Origin: a virus
DNA: 64,000 nt
Strand: one strand, 5' to 3'
IMG/VR virus record: IMGVR_UViG_3300046542_000086
Span: 1-64,000 of that record
The translations under genes and the position numbers were made by a program. The notes beneath the pieces were generated by a model, which saw only the letters and a program-made list of their open reading frames with translations, was not told the origin of the DNA and searched no databases. This document shows positions 2,404 to 25,194 of this stretch, piece after piece. Each line of letters starts with the position of its first letter. The stretch's first letter is position 1.

Positions 2404-2760
2404 TTAAAGGTACAGATACAAACCCGTGGGTCTGATCATCAACGTCAATTCACCTTCTTGGACCAAGTGGTGGTTACACGCCTTGATCTTCCGGTAAAGC
2501 TGGGTGCGCAGGGTGTTACGCTTGTCAATCAGGTGGATCAGTTTGTAAATGTCATTTGGCGCATTATCCTCACGGAATACCAACAACAGTGTACTTTCAA
2601 TGCAGTCCTTCAACCAGATAGTCTCGATGGTGATCATCAACCACTGGAGTTCGTGTTGCTTTAATAGATGTTGAAACTGAGGGGTGCTTAAGGCGTCCCT
2701 GATCTCAGCCTGCAATAGGATCTGCAAGTTCCGGTAATCAGTTACTATTTGTAAATCCAT
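2404..2760 (-). CDS. Hypothetical protein, 118 aa, first gene after an early promoter
   Basis: ORF starting about 35 nt downstream of a TATATTA motif. Confidence 0.8.
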   Translation of the reverse strand: MDLQIVTDYRNLQILLQAEIRDALSTPQFQHLLKQHELQWLMITIETIWLKDCIESTLLLVFREDNAPNDIYKLIHLIDKRNTLRTQLYRKIKACNHHLVQEGELTLMIRPTGLYLYL

Positions 2761-2789
2761 CGTTCTAACCTTTCTGAAGGTTTGTTCAA

Positions 2790-2812
2790 TTGGATAATAT
2801 AGGTCTCAAACT
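2790..2812 (-). promoter_or_regulatory. phiKZ-type early promoter (variant TATATTAT)
   Basis: Minus strand TTTGAGACCTATATTATCC matches the other copies in the window. Confidence 0.65.
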
Positions 2813-2899
2813 AATTAGGATGACCTCTATGCCCTTTGCTCTATAAGATCAGGGGTATGTGTCAACTTATACAGAGAGTCGACTGAGGAGGCTTACAGA

Positions 2900-2940
2900 C
2901 GGCATAAAGCCCCTCACCGGATAACCAGCAAGGGGCTTTG
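2900..2940 (-). terminator. Hairpin with TTTATGCCG tail ending the tRNA/ncRNA block
   Basis: AAAGCCCCT...AGGGGCTTT stem followed by ATGCCG on the minus strand. Confidence 0.7.
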
Positions 2941-2950
2941 CGCTTTCTAC

Positions 2951-3422
2951 TCGTCGGTCAGCTATCTGTGAGTGGAGTCAGGTCCCCTCTCGGCCAACCT
3001 CATGGCGTCGGATGTAGCCAGGCGTGTTTTCCCACCTCTCGCTCCTGACAGCGATGAGGATTACGGCTAGAACGTACGCACCCCTCCAAATGCCCGGCTC
3101 GGCTGGTAAAGGTAGGATTCCCGATGCGTACTCGATTTACTCTAAAGTAAACCCCCTAGTGTATTACCCTAAGTCTGGCCAGACCGAAGGAGCAATAGAC
3201 TAGAGGCTGCACTTTACCGGGGTGACCAACTATAATGTCGCACGCCCCGACTCTTTACAACTTGAGCCCTTCGCAGGGGCCCCGTATCCTTTACATCGGG
3301 TCTGAGTGCGAGTCAGGTTCCAATGCTTCCTGTAGTACGTCTGCATTCCAGGATGAGGTTGCAAACGCTCAGCCCTTACCGGGCGGAGATACGTGATCCT
3401 CCGCACTCGCAGAGGACGACGA
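2951..3422 (-). ncRNA. Candidate ~470-nt structured ncRNA
   Basis: No ORF of 60 aa or more; nested end-to-end helices 2951-2956/3417-3422, 2965-2974/3404-3413 and 2995-3003/3353-3361; GNRA-capped hairpin on the minus strand. Confidence 0.55.
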
Positions 3423-3429
3423 TTTAGTA

Positions 3430-3930
3430 CCCCCGAACCTACCAGCTCTCTTGGACATATAGTCGTTTGATTTTGGCTGTGGACGGGGGAATCAAGCTAC
3501 CCTCTCTCTTTGAGTCGTCTACGCTTACAGATTTGCCTTGAAGGGGATCTGATTTGTGGTCCGGTCCTAAAAAGTAGTAACCATATCCTACGACGAACAG
3601 GGGATTAGCCTGTGAGGGTACAACTTAGGGTGAGCGGGAAAGCCGAAACCTTCCAGACAGTTAGATGCCCGACGGGGTGGGGCCTGTCCAAGAGTTGGGT
3701 AGATAAAGTCCAACTCAAGACTTGCGATACGCTCACTTAGGGAGCCTTCTCTCTACGTCGGGAAGGTTTATGTTCCGTTGCGCAGTACCATGACCTCGTT
3801 TGACCGAGAGAAGACATTACTCTTTACCCCATTAGTTCCCTTATCCCTGATTACCCTGCGCGTCAGGTCGAACGTAGATAAGGTAGGCGCGACAATGTCG
3901 CCTCGTTTTACTTCTGTTCCCTAAGGAACC
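3430..3930 (-). ncRNA. Hairpin-dense non-coding block including a four-way junction (3630-3736)
   Basis: No ORF; GTGAGCG/CGCTCAC closing stem with three internal arms, one UUCG-capped. Confidence 0.45.
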
Positions 3931-3936
3931 TTCTAA

Positions 3937-4070
3937 TGGGCATCCACCGGCAAGACTCGAACTTGCGACCTCCCGCGCTTCCCTCGCGCTAAACCACCCT
4001 CGCTACCGAAGTAGCTATCGATGGAGCCTTGGGATTAGACGAGTGTTCTAACCGACTGAACTACGGTGGC
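3937..4070 (-). ncRNA. tRNA-like RNA with a 62-nt anticodon loop
   Basis: GCCACCG-TA-GTTC AGTCGGTTA GAAC-A-CTCGT[62 nt]GCGGG-AGGTC-GCAAG TTCGAGT CTTGC-CGGTGGA. Confidence 0.8.
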
Positions 4071-4085
4071 GACTACAACTTAAAT

Positions 4086-4173
4086 TGGCGGAAGAACAGA
4101 GATTCGAACTCTGGGGGCTGTTACACCCGACGGTTTTCAAGACCGTTGCCTTAAGCCACTCGGCCATCCTTCC
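4086..4173 (-). tRNA. trnS: tRNA-Ser(UGA)
   Basis: Full cloverleaf, ACGGT-CT TGA AA-ACCGT, long variable arm, G73, encoded CCA. Confidence 0.95.
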
Positions 4174-4199
4174 AGAAATGATCCAGGATTCTATTCACC

Positions 4200-4385
4200 C
4201 TGGGAGTCACCGTACAGCCAAGGCGGCGGCTGTAATTCATTGGGAACTGAGTAAGGATCGCATGAACCTACGACATCAATACTCACTCTGCCTACCGAAG
4301 ACAGAGCAACACCTCATCGGTTCGTAACGAGTGTGAGCCCGTTACGCTGAGGGTGGTTGGGTAGACACCAGCAGGCGCAGGTGTT
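4200..4385 (-). ncRNA. Candidate structured RNA between the ORF and tRNA-Ser
   Basis: Hairpins TACAGCC/GGCTGTA, CTCTG/CAGAG and CGTAACG/CGTTACG within CCTCA/TGAGG. Confidence 0.35.
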
Positions 4386-4387
4386 CT

Positions 4388-4645
4388 TCAAGTCAAGCCT
4401 TCGCTCGACTCAGTAACTTCAGCAGACCCTTTGACAGGGGCTTGCTCTTCACCTTGCGGCGAAGTGGTGTACACATGGGGAAACAAGGCATTGCATTGCT
4501 CCTTACTGTCTTTTCCGAAGATACGATTCAACGCCTCAGTGAAGCGGACTTCGTCTTCAGGGGTGGGTGGTGGTAAAGGACGACCTGTACAAGCGTGCCA
4601 TCCGACACAACCACAGAGAGAACAACCAGCTGCTGTTTGCGACAT
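4388..4645 (-). CDS. Small protein with a Cys/His cluster (CSLCGCVGWHAC)
   Basis: GAGGA RBS; co-oriented with the tRNAs. Confidence 0.7.
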   Translation of the reverse strand: MSQTAAGCSLCGCVGWHACTGRPLPPPTPEDEVRFTEALNRIFGKDSKEQCNALFPHVYTTSPQGEEQAPVKGSAEVTESSEGLT

Positions 4646-4664
4646 TTGGTAATCCTCAGAATGG

Positions 4665-4753
4665 TGGCAGTAGATGAGAGATTCGAACTCTCGAGGCCCG
4701 AAGACCTACACCCTTAGCAGGGGCGCTCCTTAATCCATCTCAGACAATCTACT
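4665..4753 (-). tRNA. trnS: tRNA-Ser(GCU)
   Basis: AGTAGAT/ATCTACT acceptor, CGCCC-CT GCT AA-GGGTG, UUCG-capped variable arm, G73, CCA followed by a second CCA. Confidence 0.9.
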
Positions 4754-4810
4754 GTAAAAGGGTGCTTCGATCATTACCCGGTGTGTGGTCTGTTTTTTGG
4801 TTTGTAGATC

Positions 4811-4898
4811 TGGTGGCCCCACCAGGATTTCGGGTTGTACCTGAAATGCTACCTCGGAGGGTAGAGTTATACCTTACGGCGTTTTTAACTACAGGGCC
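4811..4898 (-). ncRNA. tRNA-like RNA with expanded D and T loops and a 6-nt anticodon loop
   Basis: GGCCCTG/TGGGGCC-ACCA acceptor; GTTA/TAAC D stem; CTACC-CTCCGA-GGTAG; TCAGG/CCTGG T stem with a 13-nt loop. Confidence 0.7.
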
Positions 4899-4922
4899 TT
4901 TCTTACCACACCACTGATCGAA

Positions 4923-4995
4923 TGTCTTCTTAGGAGAATCGAACTCCCGTGAGTCGCCTGTGTGGCAACCGTTCTACCATTGAACTATCGAAGAC
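4923..4995 (-). pseudogene. Degenerate tRNA or tRNA mimic (loop CACACAG, no U33, two acceptor mismatches, no CCA)
   Basis: GTTC AATGGTA GAAC D arm, GTTGC/GCGAC stem, GGGAG TTCGATT CTCCT T arm. Confidence 0.7.
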
Positions 4996-5023
4996 GGGGC
5001 GAGTTGTTTCCCTTAGGTCTGTG

Positions 5024-5167
5024 CTTTCTGAGGTCGGATTCGAACCGACAAAGTCGCGTGCTCAAGCCATTACGCTGCGCACTGGACGGCACCCACAGAC
5101 AGGCGGCCCACTATGGGACTAGGGGATGCGATCCCCAGGGTATACCAATTCCCCCACTCGAGGGAAA
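5024..5167 (-). ncRNA. Leu-type tRNA-like RNA with a 72-nt branched variable arm
   Basis: GGG GAATTGGTATA CCC D arm, GGGGA-TCGCA-TCCCC, 72-nt insert, GTCGG TTCGAAT CCGAC T arm. Confidence 0.75.
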
Positions 5168-5195
5168 CAACTCTATCCACCCCTAAGGTGGAATT

Positions 5196-5272
5196 TGGCT
5201 CACCTTCTAGGACTCGAACCTAGGACACCTCGGTTAACAGCCGAGTGCAACTACCAACTGTGCTAAAGGTGA
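5196..5272 (-). tRNA. trnN: tRNA-Asn(GUU)
   Basis: TCACCTT/AAGGTGA acceptor, CTCGG-CT GTT AA-CCGAG, G73, CCA. Confidence 0.95.
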
Positions 5273-5281
5273 ATGAAACTT

Positions 5282-5521
5282 TTAACACATGACAGCAGGG
5301 CCAGTGTCACTATGACAAGGACAGGTACAAACCTTCTCCTCATCGCCATTTGGTTTTACCATGACCCAGTTACGGTGGGGTCTTGGTGAAGTGAAATCAC
5401 GTTCTTCAATACGAACAATCTCACCAAACAGTTTTCGAAGGCGTTCGACATCGGGTTGACTATCGTAACCGACCTTGAAAGTTGCTTGGGGGACACTGCA
5501 ACATCCGAACATGACATTCAC
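5282..5521 (-). CDS. Small Cys-containing hypothetical protein (CTCPCH)
   Basis: GGAG RBS; packed with neighbours. Confidence 0.7.
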   Translation of the reverse strand: MNVMFGCCSVPQATFKVGYDSQPDVERLRKLFGEIVRIEERDFTSPRPHRNWVMVKPNGDEEKVCTCPCHSDTGPAVMC

Positions 5522-5529
5522 TCCGGTGC

Positions 5530-5712
5530 TTAGGAAGCCGTTACAACTTCGGCAACCTTGATTTCGCGGTCGTCGTAGACAACACGATCAGCGGACTGAC
5601 CATCTTGCAGGACGAACTGTTCGTGAACTTCGCCAGTGACGCGATTCACGATGGTCACTTCTACATGCTTTTCAGCCGAGCAGTGAGCTTGAACTTTTAC
5701 AGAAGTAGTCAT
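5530..5712 (-). CDS. Hypothetical protein, 60 aa
   Basis: AAGGAG RBS, highly expressed codon style. Confidence 0.8.
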   Translation of the reverse strand: MTTSVKVQAHCSAEKHVEVTIVNRVTGEVHEQFVLQDGQSADRVVYDDREIKVAEVVTAS

Positions 5713-5722
5713 GATGACTCCT

Positions 5723-6184
5723 TTAGAGGGTTTCCAGGATCTGCCAGTCGTCAGCCAGTTGATCCGACTGAGCCGGAGTCCACGGGGTGAAGACGTTCTG
5801 AGCAGTCTTCATGCCGACCCATGGAGCTAAGGTTGGACACTCGTTGACACCGGGTTTGAAGCCAATGGTTGCGCAGCCTACGTCGTAATGACCAGGCTTA
5901 ACCATCACCAACCACATACCTTGACCATTCCACGAAGGGCGAGTAACTCGCTTACCTTGCTTCAGGGCTTCGATAGCGAGACCGAAGTTCAGAGCATCGC
6001 ATGGACGGTAGCTGTCCTCGAACACGGCTTTAGGCGACCACGACTGGTGACCGTTGTCGTATTCAACTAGGTAGCCTTCATCAGCACCGTTCTCGCCGGC
6101 AGGAAGTTCCCAGCCTTTACGGTGGTTGTACTCCAACCGAGTCATCGGTTTACCAACAACCTTCTTGGTGCCAATGTAGTTCAT
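5723..6184 (-). CDS. DUF2829 / Tad2-like anti-defence sponge protein with an extra N-terminal domain
   Basis: FGLAIEALKQGKRVTRPSWNGQGMWL...WTPAQSDQLADDW signature. Confidence 0.75.
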   Translation of the reverse strand: MNYIGTKKVVGKPMTRLEYNHRKGWELPAGENGADEGYLVEYDNGHQSWSPKAVFEDSYRPCDALNFGLAIEALKQGKRVTRPSWNGQGMWLVMVKPGHYDVGCATIGFKPGVNECPTLAPWVGMKTAQNVFTPWTPAQSDQLADDWQILETL

Positions 6185-6193
6185 GACTAATCC

Positions 6194-6355
6194 TTAACAG
6201 ACCATGATGGGCACTGGTATGCCCTGTTCTTTGCAAACACGCTCAAGGTTCTCCTGAGCATCCTGCCATTGCTTTAGCCTAGCGAGGGTTTCCTCACGAG
6301 ACTGGGGTTTGATCTTGGAACGATCCAGATCACGTAAGCGAAATGTACGTACCAT
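6194..6355 (-). CDS. Small protein, 53 aa (MVRTFRLRDLDRSK...PIMVC)
   Basis: Hand-translated; AAGGAG RBS; below the ORF-track cutoff. Confidence 0.7.
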   Translation of the reverse strand: MVRTFRLRDLDRSKIKPQSREETLARLKQWQDAQENLERVCKEQGIPVPIMVC

Positions 6356-6436
6356 GACCAACTCCTTAAAAAATGGGACTGTTGCCTCGAAAGGCTTAGA
6401 GTCTGTGACGACCCGACCCCGACAGTTAGCGGGATT

Positions 6437-6654
6437 TCAACGTAGGTTGCTTTATACCTGACTAAGCGACCAACCTGTTGAGGATTGGCTAGGGGTATGA
6501 TCCCTAGTTCTCTCTACGTTGATTTTCTGAAGTTGACAGAGGAGAAAGGCGGCTCGTTTTATCTCCCGACTTGTACCCATGCACCTTAATGAACCACTGG
6601 GCGGCTCCTTTGAGTGCGGTTCGGCTGTACCCTACCGTCTGTCAATCAACTTCA
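6437..6654 (-). ncRNA. Two adjacent end-paired structured elements (6437-6522 and 6528-6654) directly downstream of tRNA-Asp
   Basis: 9-bp closing stems TCAACGTAG/CTACGTTGA and TGAAGTTGA/TCAACTTCA. Confidence 0.5.
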
Positions 6655-6660
6655 AAAAAC

Positions 6661-6737
6661 TGGCGCCTCCGAACGGACTTGAACCGTCGACCCCTAGCGT
6701 GACAGGCTAGTGCTCTAACCAACTGAGCTACGGAAGC
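6661..6737 (-). tRNA. trnD: tRNA-Asp(GUC)
   Basis: GCTTCCG/CGGAGGC acceptor, CTAGC-CT GTC AC-GCTAG, G73, CCA. Confidence 0.95.
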
Positions 6738-6937
6738 GAAAAGGTCCTGAGGAAGATGGACTCTGCGATCACCCAGACTGTGCCTGTAGGTGCATCGCTT
6801 GTAGGCTCAAGGTTCGTATAGACAACCATGGGCCAAGAACAGTCTTGAGCGTGACGAGCTAGGCTTAGCACTTTAAAGCGCAGCCCACTAGGAGATTTGT
6901 ACTCTCTTAGTTCCTCGATACTCTCTAACATGTTCAT
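6728..6937 (-). CDS. DUF1653-like small protein
   Basis: Y...G..FKVL..ARH.....MVVY..L......WV.....F pattern; GAGGA RBS. Confidence 0.7.
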   Translation of the reverse strand: MNMLESIEELREYKSPSGLRFKVLSLARHAQDCSWPMVVYTNLEPTSDAPTGTVWVIAESIFLRTFSLP

Positions 6938-6950
6938 TCCTCAAATAGGT

Positions 6951-7174
6951 GATCCTCCCAGCGTCTGAACGCCGGGTTAATGCTGAGGCGCGCCCGTAAC
7001 CGACATTCGCTCAAAAGGCTCGTCTAAGTGGGCGCACAGCAAAGGATCGTAAATGTGACCAGTGTTGTGCATCGAAGCACTGCTAGTTCCCGGACCGCAC
7101 TAGCTTTCCAATGTATACGGCTGACGCGATGTCAGCTATGGCCCTACACACTGACCTCCCTGAGGTACACTGGT
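6951..7174 (-). ncRNA. Two end-paired multibranch elements (6951-7048 and 7058-7174)
   Basis: GATCCT/AGGATC and ACCAGTGT/ACACTGGT closing stems; four internal hairpins in the second, the last being GTGC-TTCGAT-GCAC. Confidence 0.55.
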
Positions 7175-7180
7175 ATAAAC

Positions 7181-7337
7181 TGGCCCCGAGGGATGGATTC
7201 GAACCATCGACCTATCCGTTCAACCGACTCCGTTTGACGGGAGAGTTTAGTTACACCCGCCCAGTCAACTCCACCTTGCGGCTCACGTTGCGAATACGGA
7301 TGCTCTCGGACTGTTCTACCAACTGAACTACCCAGGG
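7181..7337 (-). ncRNA. tRNA-like RNA with an 88-nt structured anticodon loop and encoded CCA
   Basis: CCCTGGG-TA-GTTC AGTTGGTA GAAC-A-GTCCG[88 nt]CGGAT-AGGTC-GATGG TTCGAAT CCATC-CCTCGGG-G-CCA. Confidence 0.85.
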
Positions 7338-7814: not shown

Positions 7815-7846
7815 GGCAAAAAAAAAGAAGCCCCCGAAGAGGCTCC
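7815..7846 (-). terminator. Intrinsic terminator with U tract
   Basis: GGAGCCTC-TTCG-GGGGCTTC followed by T9. Confidence 0.85.
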
Positions 7847-7851
7847 CTTAA

Positions 7852-8506: not shown

Positions 8507-8538
8507 TCACCTGAGTAATATAGGTCTGAAACTTATTT
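8507..8538 (-). promoter_or_regulatory. phiKZ-type early promoter
   Basis: AAGTTTCAGACCTATATTACTCAGGTGA. Confidence 0.8.
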
Positions 8539-20932: not shown

Positions 20933-22621
20933 TCACGCCGAAGCGTCCTGTTGCAACACGATCATGCCACCGATGCCGAGCTGGAGATCAGCCTCAGGTA
21001 GACGACGGATGAAGCGAATGAACAACGGTTCACCACTTGCCGGTACCGCAGGAACCAACAGCTCAGTGTTCCAACGATCAATCGGGTAAGTGTACTCCGT
21101 ACCATTGATCATCAAGATGAAATGGTTTGGTTCTGGAGCACGGGTTTCCGATTGGGTGTTAACCAACGGCTCGGAGTTGTAGAACACCTTCTGGAGCCAA
21201 GTCGATTGCAATTCCAGTCCGCAGTCGATCTTGATCTTCCAGTTGTTGACGTTGACAAAGGTCGTGATCGCTCGCAGACCCTTACCGTACAACTCAGCTT
21301 GACCTGGACTGTACTCGATGTTCCAACCGTTGCTGGTGTCGTTCCCTGGAGCCAACAGACCGATACCAATCTCTTGCGAGTGGCGCCAGTTACCGTAGCT
21401 GGAGTCCAAGTCAGACATGTTGATACCGACTGTAACCCGCTGAAGCGGACCGTAAGCAATCGGATCGAACGGGTTGGAGTTCACACCGAAGGTCACCATC
21501 GAAGTCACTTCGAAGAACTGCGAACGGTTCAAGTTGAACAAGAACCAGCGCAGGCGGTAACCCGATACAGCATCGACCCATTGCGGGAAGCAGAACAGCT
21601 TGACCGAGAACGCACCATCGAGTCGTGTAGTGGTTGCCCAATACGGAACCGACATGTGTTTCTGCAAGCTGGCTGAAGCGCCGTAGACGTATTCCTCAGC
21701 CGACAGACGGTAAGACAGAACCAACTCAACCTTCTGACCTACGATCGTCGCAATGAAGTTCTGCAAGCCGTACAGGTTGAACTTAGTACCATCCACTGGG
21801 AACTGTTTCTTCGAACCGTCACTGTAAGTCACCACACCTCGGGCGTTGAGGGCTTCGACTGGCATGTTGATCGCAAACTTCAACAGACTGTCATCGCCTT
21901 CCGAGATAAACGGAGACTCCAAGTGAATACTGGTGATGAACTTCTTCGACGCGTCCGTAGTACGGATAAACGCCGTGTTCATGATCAACAGTTTAGCCAA
22001 CGAGGTCACGTTACCGACATCATCGTACATTACGACAGTGACGACTTCGTTATCCGGCAGCTGCTGGTTCGTGTAACCAACCATCGGGGTTTTCACCGCG
22101 TAGTTGATTGCTGAAGGAACACCTGACTGTGGGTTGGTCGGCATCTGAACCAGTTCGAGTGGGATGTTCTCCCCGAGCAAAGTACCACCTTGGTCATACA
22201 TCGCCGAGATGACTTTGGACTCGTCACTGATGTCCGTACCCCAGAACACTTTGATCTGACTCACGCTAGTACCGTACACCCGCAAGCGAGAGTCGATAGC
22301 CAGTACGTGAGGGATTACCGAAGTGTCCAGATACACACGGTAGGATTCTGACTGATAGCCAGGTCCCACGCCCAACAGCATGTCTTCCTCGGTCACAGTC
22401 TCACCGGTAGCCGGTGGAACGTATTGAACCAGTTGGCTCAGACCAGTAGACAGGTTGACACTGGCGACGCGCCACAGACCAGTGATCCAGTCCCAGACTT
22501 CATCGTCGATGTTGGGGATGTATACACCAGTACCCGTGGGGCCGGTATAGATTTCACTTTTTAGCCACCGACGGTGTCCCCGGTTAGGATCGCCAATCGG
22601 GACAATAGCCACATCACTCAT
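20933..22621 (-). CDS. Virion structural protein (phiKZ gp26-like)
   Basis: Size, beta-rich composition, synteny with terL. Confidence 0.75.
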   Translation of the reverse strand: MSDVAIVPIGDPNRGHRRWLKSEIYTGPTGTGVYIPNIDDEVWDWITGLWRVASVNLSTGLSQLVQYVPPATGETVTEEDMLLGVGPGYQSESYRVYLDTSVIPHVLAIDSRLRVYGTSVSQIKVFWGTDISDESKVISAMYDQGGTLLGENIPLELVQMPTNPQSGVPSAINYAVKTPMVGYTNQQLPDNEVVTVVMYDDVGNVTSLAKLLIMNTAFIRTTDASKKFITSIHLESPFISEGDDSLLKFAINMPVEALNARGVVTYSDGSKKQFPVDGTKFNLYGLQNFIATIVGQKVELVLSYRLSAEEYVYGASASLQKHMSVPYWATTTRLDGAFSVKLFCFPQWVDAVSGYRLRWFLFNLNRSQFFEVTSMVTFGVNSNPFDPIAYGPLQRVTVGINMSDLDSSYGNWRHSQEIGIGLLAPGNDTSNGWNIEYSPGQAELYGKGLRAITTFVNVNNWKIKIDCGLELQSTWLQKVFYNSEPLVNTQSETRAPEPNHFILMINGTEYTYPIDRWNTELLVPAVPASGEPLFIRFIRRLPEADLQLGIGGMIVLQQDASA

Positions 22622-22623
22622 GG

Positions 22624-25194
22624 TTATACCCATCCGTCTTTGATAGAGATAAAGTGACTGATGTCAACTTTAGACTCCAAGTAAAAGGCAATAGCCCGTT
22701 TTAAGAAGTTGTACTGGTAGATGTTCAACTCCACTACGCTGGACCGGTGGTGTGGATGGATACTGACGTACCGCGTGTCCACATCCTGCTTACACGGATC
22801 GAAATCCAGCAGGTACTCGTAAGAGGCCAGCCAACGCTTGATGTCCATGTCACCGTAGTGGGTCATCATCTGGTCGTCCCAGATCACTCCACTGATCAGG
22901 TCAAACATCACCTTGCACGCAAACGGGCTGAACACCTCGTAACGCTCAGTGATAACGTTTGGATCAGACACCTGTGGCTCAGGAAGCTTCAAGGTGAGGT
23001 AGTTGGAGATACTCGTGTCGATTGCCTGCGACTTAGCACGCAATGAGTAAGTGTTCTCGTCCACCAGATTACGCAACGGGACAACCACGTCATCAATCAG
23101 GTACGGGCTTCCGTTTTGCACGACGTTAGTGAGGTACACACCACTGTGCTCTTCTGCAAACTTCAGCTTGTCACGAGTCAGCGTCTTTCCACGCACGATG
23201 ATCCGCATGACTTTGTCGTCACGAATATCGAAGCGTTTATTACGACTGAGCAAACCTAGGTTCACAAAACCAAACTCAGCAGGTGGCTCCATCGACATGT
23301 CGTCGTCAGGGAAACCTGTTACCCGCACCACTACGTTCTGGGTGTCACCTGGGACCAAGAACTCGCGGTTCGTGATCGTGACGTACGGCCAGTTCAAGAA
23401 GTAGTCGAGACCTTCGATCAAGGCGTGTCGATTCAAGAACAGTTCGACCTTACCCATCCGCAGGTTCATCGGCTGGTTATAGTAGTTACCGTCGCTGCGC
23501 TTTTCAGTCGCTTTGATCGGGAAGTAGTACAACCCATCTGGAGCTGTGATGTTGACGCTGTAAGTCAGGAACTTGCGGTCATCACGTACAGCGGTATACC
23601 ACGACACTCGGTCGAGCATCCAGACCACTTTACCATCAACGAAGGTGTAGTCAACGTCTTCCACCGCCGTGACCCAGTTATACGACGGCGTACCAGCCAC
23701 CATCGAACACTTGTAGTATCGATAGTTGTAGACCGGATCAATCGTCGTGGTCAGGGCGTTATAGACAGTGTCCAAGATCTCAGAACCTGTCCCCACCAGA
23801 GCCTCAACCAAACGACAGTCGACGTTACGTGGGTTGTAGTAGACCCCGGAGGTGTGAGGATAGATCCCCAATAGCAAACCGTCAGCGTCAAACTCGTAGC
23901 ACGTCGCCGCACTCTGCAAACCGTAAGGCATGGTCGCAAAGCGGTCACGGGTGAGTACTGTCACCTTCTGTGGCGTGTCAGCAACCAACTTACTGATGGC
24001 GTTGTAGCCATAAGCGTTCTGTACCAACTCACGAGTAATCCCAGGACCTAAGTCCCGCATCACTTTAGGGTACATGGCTGCTTCGAGGTTGTCGGCTCGC
24101 CAAACGGCTACAGTCGATTCAATCCCGAGCATGGCTTTAGGGATGTCTGCCGCACTGAGTTTGTACAACTCTTTAATGCGGGAGTTCTCATTCACCAGCG
24201 GACGTTTCCATCCTGACTCACGAATGCACAACCGAACCGTGATGTCTGAGGGATTGGACCAACCTTCTTTAGCCGCAATGAAACCTGCCACGTAAGGCAC
24301 TACAATCGAGTAGTCCTTGTGCGTGACCATGCGCATCGAGTCTTCCTGATTGCGGTGATGGAACACCCCAGTAAAGCGACCGTTGGTCTCTTTCTTGATC
24401 AGGTAGATGTCAATGTCATCGCAGTAGTCGATCGTTTCCTGTTGGTCAGCGGTGTAGTGCAACAGGTACTTGAACTTATTGTCCAAGCTACTGGTGAACG
24501 TACTGAGCCCACTGATCGGCAAGTCTACTACCCGACGAATTGTCGAATCGTAAACGTACTCCAACACATCCCCCACCTTGTAGCGGTTAGGTTGGAAGTC
24601 GTCGACCAGATAGCCGTTGCAGTAAGCGTAGGTGTGACCCAACTTAGCTTTCCAAGCGAGGTACTCACGTTGGAAGGTTAGCAGGCGACCAGAGTCTCCA
24701 TCGAACGTGTAGCCATTAACGACCACAGAGTTCGCCACGTTGTACGAACGTTCAGAAGCCAAGTAGGCGTTGGAGTAAACCCGGAAGAACACGGGCTCGT
24801 TGTACAGGCTATCAAACTGCTCGTTACGCTTAATGGCGATCACGAGGTTTCGATCACCCATCACTTGGAAATACGCCAAGTGGCGAGGAATCTGAACACC
24901 GTCGTTGTTGTACAGATCCACCATCATCTTCGCCTCATTACAGACGACGGAGAACGGGGTCCAGGTCTTCCACGAGTCAACCAACCCGAGGAGCTTAGGA
25001 TGAATCTGTCCAATCCAGTAAACGTTGAAGGTATCGGTGCGGTTTGGCAACACGATGGTTTGCCATTCTACATCGACCAAACGAGTAGTACCGTACGGCC
25101 CAGTGATGTGTGCCAAACGGTAGATGTATTGATAGTCCTGATCGGGAGTGCACCAGACATTGTCTAGCGCGTGCTCAATCAAGAAATCAGACAT
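22624..25194 (-). CDS. Virion structural protein (phiKZ gp27-like)
   Basis: HALDNVWCTPDQD N-terminus, MVTHKDYS motif, synteny. Confidence 0.75.
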   Translation of the reverse strand: MSDFLIEHALDNVWCTPDQDYQYIYRLAHITGPYGTTRLVDVEWQTIVLPNRTDTFNVYWIGQIHPKLLGLVDSWKTWTPFSVVCNEAKMMVDLYNNDGVQIPRHLAYFQVMGDRNLVIAIKRNEQFDSLYNEPVFFRVYSNAYLASERSYNVANSVVVNGYTFDGDSGRLLTFQREYLAWKAKLGHTYAYCNGYLVDDFQPNRYKVGDVLEYVYDSTIRRVVDLPISGLSTFTSSLDNKFKYLLHYTADQQETIDYCDDIDIYLIKKETNGRFTGVFHHRNQEDSMRMVTHKDYSIVVPYVAGFIAAKEGWSNPSDITVRLCIRESGWKRPLVNENSRIKELYKLSAADIPKAMLGIESTVAVWRADNLEAAMYPKVMRDLGPGITRELVQNAYGYNAISKLVADTPQKVTVLTRDRFATMPYGLQSAATCYEFDADGLLLGIYPHTSGVYYNPRNVDCRLVEALVGTGSEILDTVYNALTTTIDPVYNYRYYKCSMVAGTPSYNWVTAVEDVDYTFVDGKVVWMLDRVSWYTAVRDDRKFLTYSVNITAPDGLYYFPIKATEKRSDGNYYNQPMNLRMGKVELFLNRHALIEGLDYFLNWPYVTITNREFLVPGDTQNVVVRVTGFPDDDMSMEPPAEFGFVNLGLLSRNKRFDIRDDKVMRIIVRGKTLTRDKLKFAEEHSGVYLTNVVQNGSPYLIDDVVVPLRNLVDENTYSLRAKSQAIDTSISNYLTLKLPEPQVSDPNVITERYEVFSPFACKVMFDLISGVIWDDQMMTHYGDMDIKRWLASYEYLLDFDPCKQDVDTRYVSIHPHHRSSVVELNIYQYNFLKRAIAFYLESKVDISHFISIKDGWV

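What the first reader, a model, noticed from the sequence alone, without database searches (positions are those of the whole stretch)
2951..3422. ~470-nt end-paired non-coding RNA candidate
Three nested long-range helices join the ends (2951-2956/3417-3422, 2965-2974/3404-3413, 2995-3003/3353-3361). Inner stems include GTACGCA/TGCGTAC and a GCGA-capped hairpin at 3266-3280. A motif recurs (TCTGTGAGTGGAGTCAGGT at 2965 and TCTGAGTGCGAGTCAGGT at 3301), allowing alternative pairing. Size and tRNA linkage recall phage ornate large RNAs (GOLLD, ROOL), but I see no diagnostic match.
Basis: partly seen in the sequence, partly recalled or inferred. Interest (0 to 1): 0.75.

Follow-up and report, generated by a model that had tools for sequence, protein, structure and literature searches.

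The report
Part of giant jumbo-phage RNA
The flagged stretch is real folded non-coding RNA, but it is read from the opposite strand and is only the rear part of a roughly 835-base, patchwork RNA gene of unknown job that closes the tRNA gene cluster of an uncultured giant phage.

Summary

**Strand.** The RNA strand is minus, as for the tRNAs. Folding gives z -3.2 on minus and -1.2 on plus. In the paired cells there are 134 G-U against 6 A-C.

**Structure.** Five homologues, about 80% identical, keep 93.3% of 718 cells paired. 41 of 144 pairs show compensatory change, against 22.4 in shuffles and 5-9 in slid controls. This support lies almost entirely in local hairpins.

**Extent.** The stretch is the 3' part of a unit of about 835 nt (about 3738 to 2904). 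The unit starts with a tRNA-like cloverleaf at a module boundary where relatives carry a tRNA, or a tRNA plus a nuclease gene. It ends in a strong terminator hairpin.

**Mosaic make-up.** A sixth relative keeps the 5' modules but lacks the ultra-conserved 188-nt 3' domain (3135-2948).

**Identity.** There is no Rfam match, GOLLD and ROOL included, and nothing in GenBank phages. The function is unknown and no expression data exist.

This scan had already noted the same family on sister contigs (e1-5651775 and others).

The parts
2904..3738 (-). Inferred whole RNA unit (about 835 nt), of which the finding is the 3' 57%
   Evidence: Continuous conservation at about 80-83% in L002, L003, L004 and L012. 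The 5' limit is set by tRNA or gene insertions in relatives at 3739/3738. The 3' limit is set by the terminator. The ends are inferred, not mapped.
3630..3736 (-). Module M1: tRNA-like cloverleaf. It has a 7-bp closing stem, an arm with the invariant 11-nt loop ACUUUAUCUAC, a long variable arm, and a UUCG-capped arm abutting the closing stem.
   Evidence: The closing stem GUGAGYG/CRCUCAC changes C-G to U-A or U-G. The inner variable-arm stem changes GCCC/GGGC to GUGAC/GUCAC or UCC/GGA (read from alignment A3). It is not called a tRNA by ARAGORN or Rfam.
3493..3627 (-). Module M2: three-way junction closed by a 12-bp stem, with a 5-bp hairpin carrying the invariant 7-nt loop CUAAUCC
   Evidence: RNAalifold. 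Together with M1 it is 91% identical even in L030. It is the part of the unit kept in 6 of 6 sequences.
3430..3489 (-). Module M3: 60-nt irregular hairpin
   Evidence: 5 pairs show both-side changes. It is absent from L030.
3396..3417 (-).
   Evidence: 7 of 9 pairs show compensatory change (helix 2).
3283..3393 (-). Four-way junction. The closing helix is 3393-3387/3289-3283. It encloses hairpins M5 (3386-3370, GGYAA loop), M6 (3368-3337) and M7 (3326-3293, invariant loop CUCGCAC).
   Evidence: M7 has 7 of 11 pairs compensatory (helices 7-8). The closing helix varies on one side only. L030 adds compensatory pairs in M5 and M6.
3264..3282 (-).
   Evidence: Kept in 6 of 6 sequences, with A-U/G-C and G-U/U-A exchanges.
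3134..3261 (-). Hypervariable hairpins. These include 3205-3153, whose loop keeps the palindrome GGCC (3180-3177) on a covarying stem.
   Evidence: 12 of 19 pairs are compensatory (helix 14). GGCC is present in 6 of 6. Two sequence 'types' are shuffled among lineages.
2948..3135 (-). Ultra-conserved 3' domain. It has a long hairpin (3133-3072) with a 10-nt bulge, and hairpins with the invariant loops GUCAGG, GGAAAACA and ACCUGA.
   Evidence: Mean column identity is 93%, against 81% for the neighbouring gene. Model R1 finds one copy in each of 4 of 4 family records held whole, and in L012. It finds none in L030's locus or its 112-kb contig.
2904..2939 (-). Intrinsic-terminator-like hairpin followed by UUUAU
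   Evidence: -32.7 kcal/mol, z -6.98. The stem sequence differs in L004 and L030, while the downstream CUUUAUGCC.UCUGU is invariant in 6 of 6. The simple scan missed it because the U-tract is short.

Best explanation
The flagged 472 nt are the rear part (57%) of a non-coding RNA gene of about 835 nt on the minus strand (about 3738 to 2904). This gene is the last unit of the tRNA/ncRNA array of a phiKZ-like jumbo phage.

**Shown.**
- The stretch does not code for protein.
- It is conserved in six phage sequences.
- It folds into many local hairpins kept by compensatory changes.
- The strand is minus.
- The unit is modular. M1 and M2 are universal, the central hairpins diverge and recombine, and M3 and the 188-nt 3' domain are dispensable.

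**Inferred.**
- It is transcribed with, or behind, the array.
- Its 5' end is made by tRNA-type processing at the boundary 3739/3738. Relatives carry a tRNA there, and the RNA itself begins with a tRNA-like cloverleaf.
- Its 3' end is made by the terminator hairpin.
- It then persists as a stable trans-acting RNA.

**My best guess for what it does** (about 1 in 4 on its own): a protein-free or protein-poor scaffold or particle in the manner of GOLLD and ROOL. Invariant loops (GGCC, CUCGCAC, GUCAGG/CCUGAC) would make RNA-RNA contacts. The second guess is a decoy for host RNA-directed enzymes.
For: **Strand.** MFE z is -3.20 on minus and -1.22 on plus. In all five homologues minus has the lower z; L002 barely (-1.22 against -1.12), and there plus has the lower MFE. 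The alignment fold gives -143.4 against -111.2 kcal/mol, and 41 against 22 compensatory pairs. There are 134 G-U against 6 A-C cells. The tRNAs and the terminator lie on minus.

**Structure.** 93.3% of 718 cells are paired, against 86.2 +/- 0.7 in shuffles (0 of 500 reach it). 41 pairs are compensatory, against 22.4 +/- 3.0 in shuffles (0 of 500) and 5-9 in slid controls.

**Non-coding.** 19 of 19 indel events are not multiples of three. Variable columns fall 56/59/60 by phase, and there are stops in all frames. No ORF appears under TGA=W or TAG=Q.

**Boundaries.** Relatives carry a tRNA-Leu, or a tRNA plus an SNase gene, exactly at 3739/3738. The terminator hairpin varies in sequence but is kept in structure.

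**Modularity.** L030 lacks the 3' domain. Wastewater contigs bridge 3121 to 3492 with 378 unalignable letters.

**Setting.** GOLLD and ROOL are phage RNAs 'often near tRNA islands' (passages read).
Against: - There is no transcript evidence of any kind. No run is on record as RNA, and the runs laid look like DNA.
- There are only six sequences from one narrow clade, and many 'compensatory' changes are inherited in blocks, so independent events are few.
- The structure tested was predicted from the same alignment, which favours it.
- Loss of whole modules in L030 fits a string of separate small RNAs as well as one large RNA.
- The full-length RNAalifold fold prefers 5'-3' long-range helices. 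None of their 31 pairs covaries, and they clash with the covarying M1 stem, so the global architecture is open.
- No repeated motif is enriched.
- Nothing tests oligomerisation.
Confidence: 0.6

Rival explanations
1. The region is not one RNA. It is a chain of independent small structured RNAs (M1, M2, M3, the junction domain, the 3' domain), each cut out of the array transcript like the tRNAs around them. This would resemble T4's rnaC and rnaD.
For: - Covariation supports only local helices.
- Modules are lost or swapped independently: L030 and the wastewater contigs.
- M1 is a closed tRNA-like cloverleaf.
- T4 places two stable RNAs of 119 and 139 nt at the distal end of its tRNA cluster on the same strand.
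- The array upstream holds other short structured units.
Against: - In six relatives no tRNA, gene or terminator is ever inserted inside 3738-2940, although such insertions occur at its 5' edge.
- The modules always keep the same order.
- The helix 3421-3418/2955-2952 and the 6-bp core 3361-3356/3000-2995 could tie distant parts together.
- No processing sites are known.
Confidence: 0.25
2. One reading: a stand-alone RNA of about 470 nt (2951-3422) whose ends are joined by three nested helices, with a repeated motif allowing a structural switch.
For: - All three helices are present in the window.
- When only this stretch is folded, RNAalifold closes it with 3421-3418/2955-2952.
- L030 lacks both strands of that helix together.
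Against: - Helix 2 falls to 5-7 of 10 pairs in relatives, and its strand sits in a covarying local hairpin.
- Helices 1 and 3 never covary.
- The 3' strand CCGACGA has two other possible partners (CGUCG at 3674 and 3595).
- Conservation and structure continue upstream without a boundary at 3422.
- The motif copy at 3318 is kept in only 2 of 5 sequences.
Confidence: 0.08
3. The stretch has no function as an RNA product. It would be a long structured 3' trailer that only shields the tRNA transcript from exonucleases, or a leader of the downstream 118-aa gene.
For: It lies between the array and the next gene. Structured 3' ends protect transcripts (general knowledge).
Against: - The 188-nt domain is 93% identical, loops included, which is more than the flanking gene at 81%. 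That is far more constraint than a shield needs.
- A terminator, and a conserved promoter-like block (CTATATTAT, 2802-2794), separate it from the gene.
Confidence: 0.05

Closest known systems
GOLLD RNA (Rfam RF02032)
   Same: It is a large (over 800 nt) multi-domain phage RNA of unknown function next to tRNA genes. One part is conserved and another variable, and tRNAs sometimes lie inside or beside it (passages of 10.1101/2024.12.08.627333 read). It has conserved hairpin loops, including a palindromic one.
   Different: - There is no match to the model at E up to 10.
- Here the universally kept part is the 5' end (M1-M2), and the conserved 3' domain is dispensable. In GOLLD the 3' region is the universal one.
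- The host range differs: phiKZ-like jumbo phages.
- Oligomerisation is untested.
ROOL RNA (Rfam RF03087)
   Same: It is a large ornate phage or prophage RNA, often near tRNA islands, with no known protein partner.
   Different: - There is no match. In one search the control genomes did not ring either, so that call alone proves little.
- The size differs: the model has 574 positions, against about 835 nt here.
- No shared motifs were seen.
Phage T4 rnaC and rnaD (species 1 and 2 stable RNAs)
   Same: They are non-tRNA stable RNAs at the distal end of the tRNA cluster on the tRNA strand (annotation of NC_000866). rnaC carries a tRNA-like T arm (sequence seen), as M1 here is tRNA-like. Their function is unknown (recalled).
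   Different: - They are 119 and 139 nt, against about 835 nt here.
- blastn-short finds no similarity beyond words of 9-11 nt.
- That the T4 RNAs are cut from tRNA precursors by RNase P is recalled, not checked.

Membership tests
GOLLD (RF02032) | Match to the Rfam covariance model at or above the gathering score (150 bits) | tested here: not met
   No GOLLD match at the gathering score. None at E up to 10 in 2600-7200 or 2890-3750. None in the whole 81.7-kb record.
GOLLD (RF02032) | Phage or prophage RNA beside tRNA genes | tested here: met
   A minus-strand tRNA array lies upstream. The phage has a phiKZ-like structural protein. In L012 a tRNA-Leu directly abuts the unit.
GOLLD (RF02032) | Universally conserved 3' region with a less conserved 5' region | tested here: not met
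   The 5' modules M1-M2 are kept in 6 of 6 sequences. The 3' domain is missing in 1 of 6.
GOLLD / ROOL | Self-assembly into a closed homo-oligomeric cage | not testable with these tools
   The only leads are the invariant GGCC loop (6 of 6) and other invariant loops.
ROOL (RF03087) | Match to the Rfam covariance model (gathering score 99.1 bits) | tested here: not met
   No match. In one search nothing rang in the control genomes either.
T4 rnaC/rnaD-type stable RNAs | Sequence similarity to rnaC or rnaD | tested here: not met
   blastn-short gives only exact words of 9-11 nt, with E of 0.25 or more.
T4 rnaC/rnaD-type stable RNAs | Position at the distal end of the tRNA cluster, on the same strand | tested here: met
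   for T4. for the window.
Canonical tRNA (RF00005), for module M1 | Recognised by the tRNA models | tested here: not met
   No ARAGORN or Rfam tRNA hit at 3630-3736, even at E up to 10. The T-like arm has a 4-nt UUCG loop, not a T loop.

The most novel reading that the evidence does not exclude
This is a third, unrelated class of giant phage RNA that, like GOLLD and ROOL, assembles without protein into a multimeric particle. It differs in being built from exchangeable cassettes. A universal tRNA-like 'head' (M1-M2) would serve both as the processing signal and as the core. Swappable hairpin modules, and a mobile ultra-conserved 188-nt domain, would tune what the particle binds in cells infected by nucleus-forming phages.
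Probability: 0.15. Interest if true: 0.85.

Novelty: new variant of a known kind. Interest (0 to 1): 0.6.

Why it matters
Large protein-free RNAs of phages (GOLLD, ROOL) have solved structures but no known job. An unrelated family in the same genomic setting, in phiKZ-like jumbo phages, would show that 'giant RNA at the tRNA island' is a recurrent phage invention. Its cassette-like make-up offers natural deletion variants: L030 lacks the 3' domain and M3. These variants could make the function testable. The family sits in an array that also carries a Tad2-like anti-defence gene, so a role in host takeover or counter-defence is worth testing. For annotation, about 0.8 kb of 'empty' DNA in these phages should be marked as an RNA gene on the tRNA strand.

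Tried and rejected
**Explanations tested and rejected.**
- Protein coding under the standard code, TGA=W or TAG=Q: rejected.
- Any Rfam family: the best hit was rnk_leader at 21 bits against a cut-off of 50, E 0.71.
- A CsrA-type or other repeated-motif sponge: GGA occurs 17 times against 17.7 expected, and no k-mer exceeds the shuffles.
- The full-length 5'-3' end-paired fold from RNAalifold: none of its 31 long-range pairs covaries, it clashes with the covarying M1 stem, and L030 keeps M1 without the 3' partner. I do not adopt it.

**Searches for distant homologues.**
- blastn against 50,697 GenBank phage records hit only window 3821-3941, a different element.
- Model R1 was run on 6 GenBank phages. 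The best E was 0.088, and that hit lies inside a structural-protein gene.
- An 18-mer scan of 185,579 species' genomes gave 11 stretches, and 0 of 11 matched R1.

**Chance pattern hits dropped.** L011, and L028 and L029.

**Expression.**
- No RNA holder was listed.
- The four wastewater 'RNA-Seq' runs that I laid are Logan contigs. Two of the four are flagged 'probably DNA'.
- Uneven contig depth in run X2 was seen but cannot be used.

**Literature.** Searches found no description of this RNA. I read passages only of 10.1101/2024.12.08.627333, PMC10690425 and PMC13282480. The supplementary tables of PMC10690425 list 10,006 candidate viral RNAs from IMG/VR and may include parts of this one.

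Full report
**Context.** The window is the first 64 kb of an 81.7-kb IMG/VR virus contig, about 30% complete. A virion structural protein (20933-22633, minus) is 47-50% identical to those of the Xanthomonas jumbo phages Xoo-sp14, RTH11 and LucasX. It is about 39% identical to those of PhiPA3 and 201phi2-1. So this is a phiKZ-like jumbo phage; that it forms a nucleus is inferred, not tested. From about 7820 down to about 2900 the minus strand carries an almost gene-free array with tRNA-Asp, Asn and two Ser. It also carries two weaker tRNA-model hits, one of them (4070-3942) with a long insert. The finding lies at the downstream end of this array. Next comes a 118-aa gene of unknown family at 2760-2404.

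**The observation.** The three long-range complementarities exist in the window, with 6 of 6, 9 of 10 and 9 of 9 pairs. So do the GTACGCA/TGCGTAC stem, the GCGA-capped hairpin and the repeated motif. That is z -1.22, with 17 of 100 shuffles as good. Folded as the minus strand they give -189.8 against -168.7 +/- 6.6, z -3.20, with 0 of 100 as good. The centroid is nearly equal to the MFE.

**Strand.**
- With my own dinucleotide shuffles (40 each), the minus-strand z-scores of the five homologues are -3.6, -1.2, -1.5, -1.9 and -2.7. The plus-strand scores are -1.2, -1.1, +0.8, +0.3 and +0.4.
- RNAalifold gives -143.4 kcal/mol, 144 pairs and 41 compensatory pairs on minus. On plus it gives -111.2, 123 and 22.
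- In the minus-strand structure, the 718 cells are 536 Watson-Crick, 134 G-U, 6 A-C and 42 other. The structure was predicted on that strand, which favours G-U.
- The tRNAs and the terminator are on minus too.

**Homologues.**
- The neighbouring gene led to three IMG/VR contigs: L002, L003 and L004.
- A 20-mer scan of metagenomes gave L012 and one chance hit, L011.
- A 17-mer from module M2 gave a sixth sequence, L030, and two chance hits, L028 and L029.
- A 17-mer from M1 found only the same contigs.
- blastn identity to the window over the non-coding stretch and the neighbouring gene together is 80-83%.
- Wastewater runs hold further relatives. Contigs in two runs join 3121 to 3492 through 378 letters that do not align at 80%. 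Another joins 3215 to 3626 through 396 letters.
- GenBank phages have nothing alignable except an unrelated element at 3821-3941.

**Not coding.** In the five-sequence alignment of the finding, 19 of 19 indel events are not multiples of three. The 175 variable ungapped columns fall 56/59/60 by phase. Every frame of every sequence has stops. Reading TGA or TAG through opens no frame.

**Structure.** For the finding region (alignment A7), the predicted structure has 144 pairs in 24 helices.
- 93.3% of cells are paired, against 86.2 +/- 0.7 after shuffling partners (0 of 500 shuffles reach it).
- 41 pairs show change on both sides, against 22.4 +/- 3.0 (0 of 500), and against 5-9 when partners are slid by 1-3 columns.
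- The support sits in local hairpins:

| Hairpin (window coordinates) | Pairs with compensatory change |
|---|---|
| 3417-3396 | 7 of 9 |
| 3326-3293 | 7 of 11 |
| 3205-3153 | 12 of 19 |
| 3055-3039 | 3 of 5 |

- There are single exchanges in the GCGAA hairpin and in the GUACGCA stem.
- Caveats: there are only five sequences. The changes come in lineage blocks. The structure was derived from the same alignment.

- Helix 1 is kept but never covaries. L004 has one mismatch, and L012 has a one-base insertion that can bulge.
- Its 3' strand could equally pair with CGUCG at 3674 or 3595.
- Helix 2 drops to 5, 7, 5 and 7 of 10 pairs, and its 5' strand is the covarying hairpin 3417-3396. It is rejected.
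- Helix 3 has an invariant 6-bp core. One pair reads C-G, A-U and A-U, but is mismatched in two sequences.

**Extent and architecture.**
- Conservation runs on upstream of 3422.
- Exactly at 3739/3738, L012 carries a tRNA-Leu(taa) that ends 3 nt before the homology resumes.
- At the same place L002-L004 and L030 carry a 160-aa SNase-family gene (PF00565, E 2e-12). In L004 a further tRNA hit lies upstream of that gene.
- So whatever lies downstream does not need continuity with upstream RNA, and it begins at about 3738.
- The first 107 nt (3736-3630) fold into a cloverleaf. Its 7-bp closing stem changes C-G to U-A and U-G. An inner arm changes GCCC/GGGC to GUGAC/GUCAC and UCC/GGA. A UUCG-capped arm abuts the closing stem as a T arm would. 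tRNA finders do not call it.
- Then follow a three-way junction (3627-3493), a hairpin (3489-3430), and the finding region.
- The unit ends in a hairpin of -32.7 kcal/mol, z -7.0, followed by UUUAU. The stem sequence differs in L004 and L030, while the downstream CUUUAUGCC.UCUGU is invariant.
- The whole unit is therefore about 835 nt. This size is inferred, since no ends are mapped.
- Folded whole, RNAalifold prefers to pair 3675-3633 with the 3' domain. None of those 31 pairs covaries, and they exclude the covarying M1 stem. L030 also keeps M1 without the partner.

**Mosaic nature.**
- L030 keeps M1-M2 at 91% identity.
- It has diverged but recognisable versions of the junction hairpins, the GCGAA hairpin and the GGCC-loop hairpin. 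It also has the terminator.
- It lacks M3 and the entire 188-nt 3' domain.
- Model R1 of that domain finds it neither in L030's locus nor in its 112-kb contig. R1 does find one copy in each of the other four records held whole, and in L012.
- That 3' domain is the most constrained piece where it is present: 93% mean column identity, loops included, against 81% for the adjacent gene.
- In the centre, two sequence types are distributed differently among lineages in different segments. The window groups with L002 in one segment and with L003 in another, which suggests recombination between modules.

**Comparison with known RNAs.**
- No Rfam family matches. GOLLD and ROOL, searched by name, give nothing at E up to 10. 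The ROOL control was silent, so that call is weak on its own.
- The resemblance to GOLLD and ROOL lies in size, phage origin, tRNA neighbourhood, and the mix of conserved and variable parts (passages read).
- T4 offers the closest layout. rnaC and rnaD, annotated 'small, stable RNA', sit at the distal end of its tRNA cluster, but they share no sequence with this RNA.
- The literature searches listed under Tried and rejected found no description of this RNA.
- Earlier notes of this scan describe the same family on sister contigs as a giant RNA of about 840 nt. I reached the same size independently. What I add is the module boundary, the tRNA-like head, the rejection of helix 2, and the natural variant lacking the 3' domain.

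**Mechanism.**
- Shown: a conserved, non-coding, minus-strand RNA structure, and its modular make-up.
- Inferred: transcription with the array, release at the tRNA or tRNA-like boundary, termination at 2939-2904, and a trans-acting stable RNA.
- The function is a guess. Invariant loops on covarying stems point to specific contacts. These loops are GGCC in 6 of 6, CUCGCAC in 5 of 5, and GUCAGG with its complement CCUGAC in 5 of 5. I favour an RNA scaffold or particle, and second a decoy.
- The array also carries a Tad2-like gene (PF11195, E 8.8e-24).
- A sponge with repeated sites is not supported.

**Limits.**
- There are six sequences from one clade.
- There is no expression data.

Noticed in passing
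window 3825-3937 (minus): A structured element of about 110 nt sits directly behind the insert-bearing tRNA-like gene. A bipartite motif from it occurs in 41 IMG/VR stretches. 24 of these carry the full element, and 18 of the 24 have a T-loop-like sequence within 60 nt upstream. The outer 8-bp stem is 8 of 8 paired in 22 of 24, across 15 stem variants. It is also present, unannotated, inside the tRNA clusters of phages Psa21, D6 and TPWB-08. There is no Rfam match. Earlier notes call it the back half of a two-part, YrlA-like phage RNA.
   Followed up: partly
window 3942-4070 (minus): The Rfam tRNA model hits here (42.4 bits) over 129 nt, i.e. a tRNA frame with an insert of about 55-60 nt. ARAGORN does not call it. 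A second weak tRNA hit (31.6 bits) lies at 4924-4994.
   Followed up: no
window 5723-6184 (minus): A 153-aa ORF inside the RNA array has a Tad2-like (Thoeris anti-defence 2) domain: PF11195, E 8.8e-24. It also matches phrog_872.
   Followed up: partly
L002 8534-9016; L004 8170-8649; L030 about 3395-3450: Relatives carry a 160-aa gene inserted exactly at the window's 3739/3738 junction. It has a signal-peptide-like N-terminus and belongs to the SNase family (PF00565, E 2e-12). In L004 a tRNA hit lies upstream of the gene. L012 has a tRNA-Leu(taa) at the same junction instead.
   Followed up: partly
window 2761-2830 (minus) and 8515-8523 (minus): A block of about 50 nt upstream of the 118-aa gene is invariant in four sequences and contains CTATATTAT. 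A near-copy, CTATATTAC, precedes gene 8503-8051. This recalls the AT-rich phiKZ early-promoter motif, which I give from memory. The pattern count in the window is not above chance (5 against 4.3 expected).
   Followed up: partly
L003 9633-10000; L004 9634-9990: L003 and L004 have about 370 extra bases between the RNA's terminator region and the 118-aa gene. In L004 these hold a further 118-aa ORF, which the window lacks.
   Followed up: no
window 7824-7849 (minus): A strong terminator-like hairpin with a run of U marks the upstream end of the RNA array.
   Followed up: no
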